NCBI RefSeq assembly: GCF_055900595.2
Contig: NZ_CM148325.1
Reading direction: 5' to 3' (one strand)
DNA: 64,000 bases
Positions 16,098-16,410 of this stretch are shown here, in pieces. A program made the position numbers and the translations under genes. The notes below the pieces were generated by a model. It ran no database searches, was not told where the DNA came from, and saw only the letters and a program-made list of their open reading frames with translations. Position 1 is the first letter of the stretch. Each line of letters opens with the position of its first letter.

Positions 16098-16119
16098 TTG
16101 TTGCCCTCATCAGGAGCAG

Positions 16120-16405
16120 TGAATTGCCGGATAAGACGCGCAAATCGTCGCATCAGGCGTTGATTGCCGGATGCGGCGTGAACGCCTTATCCAGCCTACG
16201 GTCAGCAACGGTTGTAGGCCTAATAAGACGCGCAAGCGTCGCATCAGGCATCGTGCACCGATTGCCGGATGCGGCGTGAACGCGTTATCCGGCCTACGTT
16301 CGGCAACGACTGTAGGCCTGATAAGACGCGCAAGCGTCGCATCAGGCGCTCATTGTCGGATGCGGCGTGAACGCCTTATCCGACCTACAGTCAGCAACGG
16401 TTGTT
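16120..16405. repeat. REP/BIME array, three tandem units of about 115 bp, in the aceA-aceK spacer
   Basis: Three repeats of GTAGGCCTGATAAGACGCGCAAGCGTCGCATCAGGC ... ATTGCCGGATGCGGCGTGAACGCCTTATCCGGCCTAC with minor variants. Confidence 0.85.
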
Positions 16406-16410
16406 GTTGC

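What the first reader, a model, noticed from the sequence alone, without database searches (positions are those of the whole stretch)
16098..16410. Three-unit tandem REP/BIME array fills the aceA-aceK spacer
The 313-bp spacer between aceA and aceK consists almost entirely of three imperfect tandem units of about 115 bp, each pairing two opposed REP palindromes. Such arrays inside operons are known to form stable RNA structures that give differential expression of upstream versus downstream genes, which fits the low aceK expression relative to aceA. From memory the K-12 reference spacer is shorter, so the copy number here may differ between strains.
Basis: partly seen in the sequence, partly recalled or inferred. 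Interest (0 to 1): 0.3.

Follow-up and report, generated by a model that had tools for sequence, protein, structure and literature searches.

The report
Six-REP BIME-2 array between aceA and aceK
The gap between two genes of the E. coli glyoxylate-bypass operon is filled by six copies of the species' common palindromic repeat (REP), a well-known kind of element; the only unusual point is that this strain carries the longest and rarest version of a gap that varies widely between strains.

Summary
The 313-bp aceA-aceK spacer (16098-16410, genes on the minus strand) holds six REP palindromes. They alternate Y and Z2 types in opposite orientation, giving three Y+Z2 units, which makes it a BIME-2 element. 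The unit period is 91-98 bp, not about 115 bp. Each unit passes the Rfam naRNA4 model on the transcribed strand (85.3, 80.6 and 61.6 bits; threshold 59.5). The transcript folds much more stably than shuffled sequence (z = -7.3).

K-12 has 182 bp and 3 REPs. Across 5,426 complete E. coli genomes the spacer comes in discrete lengths:
- 48 bp, 0 REPs, about 16%
- 85 bp, 1 REP
- 124 bp, 2 REPs
- 182/183 bp, 3 REPs, about 21%
- 215-228 bp, 4 REPs
- 280 bp, 5 REPs, about 45%
- 313 bp, 6 REPs, only 14 genomes

E. albertii has 11 REPs.

The likely function is inferred from the homologous REP325 array and not tested here. The hairpins would protect the upstream aceBA mRNA and partly attenuate read-through into aceK. 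The K-12 allele is also a documented gyrase cleavage hot spot. REP-less alleles show that the array is dispensable. Interest is low.

The parts
16098..16410 (-). Whole aceA-aceK intercistronic spacer (313 nt), transcribed as part of aceBAK mRNA
   Evidence: ORF list, NCBIfam equivalogs and RefSeq annotation of an identical locus. No sigma-70 promoter-like or intrinsic-terminator-like site lies inside it.
16389..16410 (-). 22-nt segment directly after the aceA stop codon (GCAACAACAACCGTTGCTGACT). It resembles the tail-to-tail linker of the repeat unit.
   Evidence: Sequence. The third direct-repeat copy runs on through this segment into aceA. Compared by eye with the linkers at 16200-16213 and 16298-16311.
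16355..16388 (+). REP 1, Y type, nearest aceA. It carries a compensated stem pair (C:G changed to U:A).
   Evidence: Pattern search, 2 mismatches; compensated pair 6-33.
16348..16354 (-). Short head-to-head linker of unit 1 (AATGAGC in mRNA sense)
   Evidence: The same linker is in the first unit of E. whittamii and Escherichia sp. E1V33.
16312..16347 (-). REP 2, Z2 type, exact match to the Z2 query
   Evidence: 0 mismatches.
16315..16385 (-). Unit 1 (Y+Z2) as called by Rfam RF02564 naRNA4: 85.3 bits against a gathering score of 59.5
16298..16311 (-). Tail-to-tail linker between units 1 and 2 (AGTCGTTGCCGAAC)
16264..16297 (+). REP 3, Y type
   Evidence: 1 mismatch.
16250..16263 (-). Longer head-to-head linker of unit 2 (AATCGGTGCACGAT), the linker type also found in K-12
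16214..16249 (-). REP 4, Z2 type. One change gives a G.U pair on the transcribed strand.
16217..16294 (-). Unit 2 (Y+Z2), Rfam naRNA4, 80.6 bits
16200..16213 (-). Tail-to-tail linker between units 2 and 3 (AACCGTTGCTGACC)
16166..16199 (+). REP 5, Y type. One change gives a G.U pair on the transcribed strand.
16125..16158 (-). REP 6, Z2' hybrid. The Z2 5' arm is fused at TTATC|CGGCA to the head of a Y REP, which looks like a derivative carrying a roughly 57-bp deletion. It still forms a hairpin with one mismatch.
   Evidence: The same hybrid ends every allele with an even REP number (124, 215-228, 306, 313 bp).
16125..16196 (-). Unit 3 (Y+Z2'), Rfam naRNA4, 61.6 bits, just above threshold
16098..16124 (-). 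27-nt leader of aceK containing its Shine-Dalgarno sequence (GAGGG at 16104-16108)
   Evidence: Sequence. Conserved in all REP-containing alleles.
16411..17730 (-). aceA (isocitrate lyase), the upstream gene. The RefSeq start gives 434 aa, ending at 17715.
14361..16097 (-). aceK (isocitrate dehydrogenase kinase/phosphatase), the downstream gene

Best explanation
The spacer is a BIME-2 mosaic element, a tandem array of three Y+Z2 REP pairs (six palindromic units) from E. coli's own dispersed REP family. It sits in the transcribed gap between aceA and aceK.

Shown here:
- its composition and its alternating orientation;
- its very stable predicted fold;
- the absence of a promoter or intrinsic terminator inside it;
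- that it is the longest and rarest allele of a locus that changes by whole REP units. This allele equals the 223-bp four-REP allele plus one extra, diverged Y+Z2 unit at the aceA end.

Inferred from homologous elements, not tested at this locus:
- When the operon is transcribed, each REP folds into a GC-rich hairpin. The hairpins block 3'-to-5' exonucleases and so protect the upstream aceB-aceA part of the message.
- The long untranslated, structured gap causes partial, Rho-assisted loss of transcripts before aceK.
- Together with the aceK ribosome-binding site (reported to be inefficient; recalled from memory, not verified here) and the terminator-like hairpin inside aceK, this would contribute to the reported 0.3:1:0.003 AceB:AceA:AceK ratio.

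The same DNA is probably also a gyrase site, as documented for the K-12 allele.

Copy number most likely changes by unequal recombination between units, with microhomology deletions producing the Z2' hybrid.
For: Identity:
- Y and Z2 consensus matches, with none in shuffled sequence.
- Alternating orientation.
- Three full-length hits to Rfam naRNA4, which models one Y+Z2 unit of REP325, all above the gathering score on the transcribed strand.
- The BIME-2 definition is met (PMC3333891).
- The K-12 allele is listed as a BIME-2 in PMC6379681 Table DS3.

Structure:
- The transcribed strand folds at -164.7 kcal/mol, z = -7.3.
- Folding energy grows with REP number, from -30 kcal/mol (1 REP) to -155 (6 REPs) to -278 (11 REPs).
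- There is no promoter or intrinsic terminator in the spacer.

Mechanistic precedent:
- REP325, a Y/Z2 array inside the yjdMN operon, lowers the downstream gene about 8-10-fold. It is partly Rho-dependent and stabilises the upstream mRNA.
- Genome-wide, REP-containing tandem gene pairs have raised upstream/downstream expression ratios.
- aceK mRNA is far below aceA mRNA in BL21, and the 0.3:1:0.003 protein ratio is quoted there.

Alleles:
- The discrete length series was seen.
- Window spacer positions 103-313 are 98.2% identical to the 223-bp allele.
- The two units of the 280-bp allele are 97/98 identical, which points to recent unit gain or loss.
- K-12-type flanks carry both the 182-bp and the 280-bp spacer.

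Conservation:
- A hairpin-forming element fills this spacer in all 11 enterobacterial species or lineages examined besides E. coli, although it comes from unrelated repeat families.
Against: - No expression data were examined for this allele or for any allele series.
- About 16% of E. coli genomes lack REPs in the spacer altogether, so the array is dispensable.
- Copy number ranges from 0 to 6 (11 in E. albertii) with no sign of a preferred value beyond lineage frequency.
- An IS1397 insertion in the spacer is tolerated in one strain.
- REP effects are reported to be context-dependent and are not seen with every REP.
- Variant stem pairs show no clear bias towards the transcribed strand: 7 G.U in sense, 3 in antisense, 5 mismatches, 2 compensated. 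Both strands fold about equally well. Selection at the RNA level rather than the DNA level is therefore not demonstrated.
- The primary study of aceBAK differential expression (Chung et al. 1993) could not be read, so I do not know whether it tested a REP deletion.
Confidence: 0.6

Rival explanations
1. The array matters mainly at the DNA level, as a strong gyrase binding and cleavage site (a known BIME-2 property). It would manage supercoiling around the heavily transcribed aceBA genes, and any effect on aceK would be secondary.
For: In a K-12 derivative the aceA-aceK BIME-2 (131 bp) has 8 ciprofloxacin-induced gyrase cleavage sites. Of the 113 BIME-2 intervals read (part 29, the last part, of a 263-row table), only tldD-yhdP has more (35), and REP325 has 0. 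Gyrase cleavage sites are over-represented in BIME-2 elements, and gyrase prefers Y REPs. The window allele has three Y REPs, as does K-12. Both DNA strands fold equally well, which is compatible with cruciform formation.
Against: This is not exclusive of the RNA-level role. Sites at this locus fell from 8 to 2 when transcription was blocked with rifampicin. That suggests transcription-driven recruitment, whereas BIME-2 sites in general rose. REP-less alleles are common. Gyrase was not mapped on this allele.
Confidence: 0.25
2. The array is essentially a neutral or selfish passenger. The spacer is a permissive landing and expansion site for REPs, through the REP-associated transposase and unequal recombination. 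The number of copies would then have no physiologically meaningful effect.
For: The spacer ranges from 0 to 6 REPs in E. coli and reaches 11 in E. albertii. About 16% of genomes have none. An IS1397 insertion is tolerated. Copy-number variation of BIME-2 at a given locus between strains is described as a general property. Other genera hold unrelated repeats at the same place, as expected for a permissive site.
Against: Every species examined, and even the REP-less E. coli allele, keeps some GC-rich hairpin directly after aceA. That is more than permissiveness predicts. REP325 deletion has clear local effects on expression. REP-containing tandem gene pairs are biased genome-wide.
Confidence: 0.3
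3. The three units are processed into naRNA4-like small RNAs that, with the HU protein, bridge REP cruciforms and condense the nucleoid.
For: All three units pass the Rfam naRNA4 gathering score on the transcribed strand. The original naRNA4/HU model is in PMC4550694.
Against: The Rfam model is in effect a model of any Y+Z2 unit, so a hit shows sequence family and not function. A 2026 preprint that includes an author of the original naRNA4 study reports no nucleoid compaction by REP325 or naRNA4, no stable ternary complex and no REP-REP long-range contacts.
Confidence: 0.03
4. The long array is an assembly artefact or a chance resemblance.
For: One Nissle 1917 assembly shows 306 bp where the other Nissle-derived assemblies listed show 215 bp. 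Repeat arrays can therefore be mis-assembled.
Against: Fourteen complete genomes carry the 313-bp spacer, nine of them with 100% identity over 711 bp. There were no consensus matches in 100 shuffles. Rfam E-values are 1e-14 to 2e-9.
Confidence: 0.01

Closest known systems
BIME-2 (bacterial interspersed mosaic element, type 2) of E. coli, including the K-12 aceA-aceK BIME-2
   Same: Made of Y and Z2 REPs in alternating orientation. Tandem units joined by short linkers. Extragenic and co-transcribed. Copy number varies between strains. Same locus and same flanking sequences as the K-12 element.
   Different: Six REPs instead of K-12's three. It has an extra aceA-proximal unit with the AATGAGC linker and a compensated stem pair, and its terminal REP is a Z2/Y hybrid. 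I could not assign the linkers to the named motifs S, s, l and r, so an 'atypical BIME' label cannot be excluded.
REP325 / naRNA1-6 array between yjdM and yjdN (Rfam RF02564 naRNA4)
   Same: Same Y+Z2 unit; all three units here pass the family threshold. It also lies inside an operon between two co-directional genes. It is the experimentally supported model for combined attenuation and upstream stabilisation.
   Different: REP325 has 12 REPs (six units) against six REPs here. It has different neighbouring genes. REP325 shows 0 ciprofloxacin gyrase cleavage sites, whereas the K-12 aceA-aceK element shows 8. No functional data exist for this locus.
malE-malF intercistronic REPs, the classical REP mRNA stabiliser (from established knowledge; cited)
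   Same: REP hairpins between a highly expressed upstream gene and a weakly expressed downstream gene of one operon. They are proposed to block 3' exonucleases.
   Different: A different locus with a smaller REP number. Its function was shown by deletion, which has not been done here.
Rho-independent (intrinsic) terminator
   Same: A GC-rich stem-loop at the end of a gene.
   Different: No U-tract follows any of the six hairpins, and the consensus scan finds none in the spacer. The real terminator-like site lies inside aceK, at 15759-15728.

Membership tests
BIME-2 | Built from y-type and z2-type REPs (PMC3333891) | tested here: met
   Three Y matches with 1-2 mismatches. Two Z2 matches with 0-1 mismatches plus one Z2' hybrid. 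No Z1 match.
BIME-2 | [quoted passage not shown] | tested here: met
   On the + strand the orientations alternate: Z2'(-), Y(+), Z2(-), Y(+), Z2(-), Y(+).
BIME-2 | Occurs as multiple tandem copies whose number varies between strains | tested here: met
   Three units here. The allele series runs from 0 to 6 REPs across 5,426 genomes.
BIME-2 | Short S linker inside the pair, with s, l or r motifs between pairs | tested here: inconclusive
   Head-to-head linkers are 7, 14 and 7 nt and tail-to-tail linkers are 14 nt. A mixed-linker 'atypical BIME' cannot be excluded.
BIME-2 | Extragenic location | tested here: met
   It lies entirely between the aceA stop and the aceK start.
BIME-2 | Bound and cleaved by DNA gyrase | not testable with these tools
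   Documented for the K-12 allele: 8 ciprofloxacin cleavage sites. Not measured for this allele.
BIME-1 | y plus z1 REPs separated by a long L linker, frequently carrying an IHF site, as a single copy | tested here: not met
   No Z1 REP. Linkers are at most 14 nt. There are three tandem units.
Rfam RF02564 naRNA4 | Score at or above the curated gathering threshold (59.5 bits) over the full model | tested here: met
   85.3, 80.6 and 61.6 bits over model positions 1-77 on the minus strand. Plus-strand scores of 41-49 bits fall below the threshold.
Rfam RF02564 naRNA4 | Exists as a discrete HU-bound RNA species | not testable with these tools
   No RNA or binding data are available for this locus. 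The function is itself disputed.
REP-type intercistronic mRNA stabiliser/attenuator | Removing it lowers upstream mRNA stability and/or raises downstream read-through | not testable with these tools
   There is only analogy to REP325 and the genome-wide bias.
Intrinsic terminator | GC-rich hairpin followed by a U-tract | tested here: not met
   The scan finds none within 16098-16410.

The most novel reading that the evidence does not exclude
REP number in the aceA-aceK spacer could act as a heritable dial. It would set the AceK:AceA ratio, and perhaps local gyrase loading, differently in different Escherichia lineages. The natural series of 0, 1, 2, 3, 4, 5, 6 and (in E. albertii) 11 REPs on otherwise near-identical flanks would then be a ready-made titration series. 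It could settle how much REPs contribute through termination and how much through mRNA stabilisation. This 6-REP allele would be the extreme low-aceK setting within E. coli.
Probability: 0.3. Interest if true: 0.45.

Novelty: already known. Interest (0 to 1): 0.15.

Why it matters
As an element it adds little. REPs in the aceA-aceK spacer, BIME-2 architecture and between-strain copy-number variation are all textbook material for E. coli repeats.

The useful by-product is the quantified allele series at one well-studied metabolic operon. There are seven recurrent spacer length classes, 0 to 6 REPs, a very skewed frequency distribution and a REP-less allele with a different hairpin and a stronger ribosome-binding site. 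[quoted passage not shown] These natural alleles would therefore be a convenient system for measuring what REP number actually does to expression within an operon.

Tried and rejected
- Tandem Repeats Finder at minimum score 30 found nothing. The array is only visible to the direct-repeat finder, consensus searches and the covariance model.
- I looked for a promoter or intrinsic terminator in the spacer and found none.
- I tested whether stem variants favour pairing on the transcribed strand, which would point to RNA-level selection. The counts were 7 sense G.U, 3 antisense-only, 5 mismatches and 2 compensated pairs, and both strands fold about equally well. The result is inconclusive.
- I tried to read Chung et al. 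1993, the primary study of aceBAK differential expression, by DOI and by PMC id. It is not held. Its 0.3:1:0.003 ratio is cited second-hand from PMC5435950.
- Full-text searches for papers linking aceK with REP or extragenic palindromes gave nothing specific.
- No supplement was available for PMC3333891, so the named linker motifs could not be checked.
- From memory, REPs within about 15 nt of a stop codon are reported to stall ribosomes (Liang, Rudd and Deutscher 2015). Here the first REP starts 22 nt after the aceA stop codon, so I did not pursue this mechanism.
- BIME-1 was rejected: there is no Z1 REP and no long linker.
- The megablast search with the full spacer was confounded by hundreds of REP hits per genome. 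I replaced it with a flank-only query.

Full report
**What is in the sequence**

The aceBAK operon lies on the minus strand of the window: aceB at 17745-19364, aceA at 16411-17730 and aceK at 14361-16097. All three match NCBIfam equivalog models with E-values of 1e-240 or lower.

The direct-repeat finder reports three copies of a roughly 98-nt unit with start-to-start spacing of 98 and 91 bp. Tandem Repeats Finder reports nothing.

Consensus searches found the following:
- three Y-type REPs at 16355-16388, 16264-16297 and 16166-16199, with 1-2 mismatches;
- two Z2-type REPs at 16312-16347 and 16214-16249, with 0-1 mismatches.

There were no matches in 100 shuffles of the window, and these are the only copies in the 64 kb.

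A sixth REP at about 16125-16158 is a Z2/Y hybrid. The Z2 5' arm is fused at TTATC|CGGCA to the head of a Y REP.

Read in mRNA sense, the spacer is laid out as follows:
- 22 nt after the aceA stop
- Y, 7-nt linker, Z2
- 14-nt linker
- Y, 14-nt linker, Z2
- 14-nt linker
- Y, 7-nt linker, Z2'
- a 27-nt leader containing the aceK Shine-Dalgarno sequence

The description 'three units, each of two opposed REPs, filling nearly the whole spacer' is therefore correct.

**Independent confirmation of the units**

Rfam release 15 gives three full-length hits to RF02564 (naRNA4) on the transcribed strand:
- 16315-16385, 85.3 bits
- 16217-16294, 80.6 bits
- 16125-16196, 61.6 bits

All three exceed the gathering score of 59.5. 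The opposite strand scores 41-49 bits, below threshold. Nowhere else in the window is hit.

naRNA4 is one Y+Z2 unit of REP325, the array between yjdM and yjdN (PMC4550694). The model is in effect a detector of BIME-2 units.

The 351-nt transcript stretch that contains the spacer (16080-16430, minus strand) folds at -164.7 kcal/mol, against -124.1 +/- 5.5 for shuffles (z = -7.3). The spacer contains no sigma-70-like promoter and no hairpin followed by a U-tract.

**Classification**

Ton-Hoang et al. [quoted passage not shown] The composition, orientation, tandem arrangement and extragenic location are all met here.

BIME-1 (z1, long linker, frequently an IHF site, single copy) is not met. I could not assign the linkers to the named S, s, l and r motifs, so 'atypical BIME' remains formally possible.

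The K-12 aceA-aceK element is already catalogued as a BIME-2 in the gyrase Topo-seq study (PMC6379681, Table DS3).

**Copy number between strains**

MG1655 has a 182-bp spacer (aceA ends at 4218413 and aceK starts at 4218596) with three REPs, Y-Z2-Y.

A search with the spacer plus flanks showed that only 14 of 5,426 complete E. coli genomes have the full 711-bp span. Nine are 100% identical and five are 99.2-99.4% identical.

A flank-only query avoids the hundreds of REP hits per genome. It joined the two flanks in 5,420 of 5,425 genomes. Rows taken at even steps down the ranking gave 58 usable spacer lengths:

| Spacer length | Rows | Share |
|---|---|---|
| 280 bp | 26 | 45% |
| 182/183 bp | 12 | 21% |
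| 48 bp | 9 | 16% |
| 124 bp | 6 | 10% |
| 215 bp | 4 | 7% |
| 85 bp | 1 | 2% |

I fetched representatives and scanned them for REPs. The series is:

| Spacer length | REP content |
|---|---|
| 48 bp | none |
| 85 bp | Y |
| 124 bp | Y-Z2' |
| 182/183 bp | Y-Z2-Y |
| 215/223/228 bp | Y-Z2-Y-Z2' |
| 280 bp | Y-Z2-Y-Z2-Y |
| 306/313 bp | six REPs |

The window therefore carries the longest E. coli allele seen, and it is rare (about 0.26%).

The only other six-REP record is an early Nissle 1917 assembly (306 bp). It disagrees with the other Nissle-derived assemblies listed (215 bp) and annotates aceK there as a pseudogene, so it is probably mis-assembled.

**Origin of this allele**

- Spacer positions 103-313 (mRNA sense) are 98.2% identical to the 223-bp four-REP allele of strain N96. 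The window allele equals that allele plus one extra Y+Z2 unit of about 90 nt at the aceA end.
- The three units here are only about 90% identical to each other. The extra unit has its own linker (AATGAGC) and a compensated stem pair (C:G to U:A).
- The same linker occupies the first unit in E. whittamii and Escherichia sp. E1V33. Retention or recombination of an old unit is therefore more likely than recent slippage.
- By contrast, the two units of the common 280-bp allele are 97/98 identical. K-12-type flanks occur with both the 182-bp and the 280-bp spacer. This indicates recent gain or loss of one unit.
- Alleles with an even REP number all end in the same Z2' hybrid. That fits a deletion of roughly 57 bp at ATC-type microhomology (280 minus 57 is 223; 182 minus 57 is about 124).

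**Other species**

A pattern scan of one genome per species recovered 11 enterobacterial aceA 3' ends that are followed by aceK.

| Species or lineage | Spacer | Content |
|---|---|---|
| E. albertii type strain | 542 bp | 11 alternating Y/Z2 REPs |
| E. whittamii | 308 bp | 6 REPs |
| Escherichia sp. E1V33 | 198 bp | 4 REPs |
| Escherichia sp. MOD1-EC7003 | 116 bp | about 2 REPs |
| Citrobacter sp., Kluyvera intermedia, an uncultured Enterobacteriaceae genome | 92-101 bp | two palindromes of their own REP type |
| Kluyvera genomosp. 1, Pluralibacter, Enterobacter sp., Enterobacteriaceae bacterium 89 | 69-128 bp | unrelated CCCTCTCCC...GGGAGAGGG palindromes |

The array is thus old in Escherichia. 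Some GC-rich hairpin follows aceA in every genome examined. That includes the REP-less 48-bp E. coli allele, which has a 7-bp GC stem (-19 kcal/mol for the whole 48-nt spacer).

**How it most likely works**

Nothing at this locus was tested functionally, and the following is inference. The best-studied homologue is REP325, which has the same Y+Z2 units and also lies inside an operon.
- Deleting REP325 raises the downstream gene about 8-10-fold.
- Its attenuation is partly Rho-dependent.
- It stabilises the upstream mRNA.
- It produces a ladder of hairpin-terminated transcripts.

Genome-wide, REP-containing tandem gene pairs have higher upstream/downstream expression ratios.

For aceBAK, a protein ratio of 0.3:1:0.003 and a much lower aceK transcript level are reported. 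I therefore commit to a dual role. The six hairpins would act as exonuclease barriers that protect aceB-aceA mRNA. The 313-nt untranslated, structured gap would partly attenuate read-through into aceK.

Two things limit the claim. About 16% of genomes have no REP in the spacer. aceK also has its own internal terminator-like hairpin (see below). My confidence in the identity is about 0.97. My confidence in this mechanism as the main local effect is about 0.55-0.6.

**Rival and parallel roles**

- Gyrase site. The K-12 allele (131 bp of BIME-2) has 8 ciprofloxacin-induced gyrase cleavage sites. In the part of the table I read, only tldD-yhdP has more (35), and REP325 has none. Gyrase prefers Y REPs. 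A DNA-level gyrase role is therefore documented for the locus. It may coexist with the RNA role. At this locus the site count fell from 8 to 2 with rifampicin.
- Neutral or selfish passenger. This reading is supported by the wide copy-number range and by a tolerated IS1397 insertion in strain BH100. IS1397 is known to target these palindromes (reference list).
- HU/naRNA nucleoid model. This is now contradicted for REP325 itself.
- RNA versus DNA selection. My test on stem variants was inconclusive.

**Verdict**

This is a real, correctly recognised but ordinary element: a BIME-2 array at a locus where one is already catalogued. The unit length was misjudged. The guess about copy-number polymorphism is right and is now quantified. 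Novelty: already known. Interest is low.

Noticed in passing
window 15728-15759 (minus strand); AceK-int homologue 15730-15814: A terminator-like hairpin with a T-tract lies about 340-370 nt inside aceK. It coincides with the 3' end of the AceK-int small RNA annotated in K-12 (b4830, 4218879-4218963) and is 82/85 identical here. It is a second, REP-independent way to lose aceK transcripts, and it matches the 'premature termination in aceK' reported for BL21.
   Followed up: partly
window 12998-14326 (approximate): An IS10-like insertion lies between the arpA-like gene and the 3' end of aceK. Its parts are an exact IS10 outside end at 12998-13016, an Rfam RNA-OUT hit at 13043-13112 (minus strand) and a 402-aa DDE transposase ORF at 13105-14313. 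It clips the last codons of the 725-aa ShET2/ankyrin ORF (10868-13045) and ends about 35 bp from the aceK stop.
   Followed up: partly
L007 399-446 (E. coli FDAARGOS_1295) and about 16% of E. coli genomes: A 48-bp REP-less aceA-aceK spacer with unrelated sequence. It has a 7-bp GC hairpin directly after aceA and a much stronger Shine-Dalgarno sequence (AAGGAG) in front of aceK than the REP-containing alleles (GAGGG). It may give a different AceK level.
   Followed up: partly
L030 3701-5351 (E. coli BH100 substr. MG2014): An IS1397-family element is inserted in the aceA-aceK spacer. This fits the known preference of that IS for BIME palindromes.
   Followed up: partly
L013 399-704 (Nissle 1917, NZ_CP007799.1) against the Nissle-derived records: Assemblies of the same strain disagree: 306 bp with 6 REPs in one, and 215 bp with 4 REPs in the others. 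The odd one also annotates aceK as a pseudogene, so it is probably mis-assembled. Real laboratory-lineage variation is not excluded.
   Followed up: no
L015 4752-5293 (E. albertii NBRC 107761): The E. albertii type strain has a 542-bp aceA-aceK spacer with 11 alternating Y/Z2 REPs, almost twice the largest E. coli allele.
   Followed up: partly
L019, L020, L024, L028 (Kluyvera genomosp. 1, Pluralibacter gergoviae, Enterobacter sp., Enterobacteriaceae bacterium 89): The same spacer holds palindromes of an unrelated repeat family (CCCTCTCCC...GGGAGAGGG with GGGTGAGGG-like tails). Different repeat families have therefore settled at the same intercistronic position.
   Followed up: no
L012 399-609 (E. 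coli BS-04): A 211-bp allele equals the 182-bp allele plus a 29-nt A-rich insertion (CCAACTACAAAAAAAAAAACAACCACAAC) in a linker. It could be a sequencing artefact or a small insertion.
   Followed up: no
flank identities (window 15898-16097 and 16411-16610): The 400 bp of coding sequence flanking the spacer are only 95.3-98% identical to most E. coli genomes (95.5% to K-12). Only 11 of 5,425 records reach 99%. By my recollection this is unusually divergent for E. coli core genes, which suggests an uncommon lineage or recombination at this locus.
   Followed up: no
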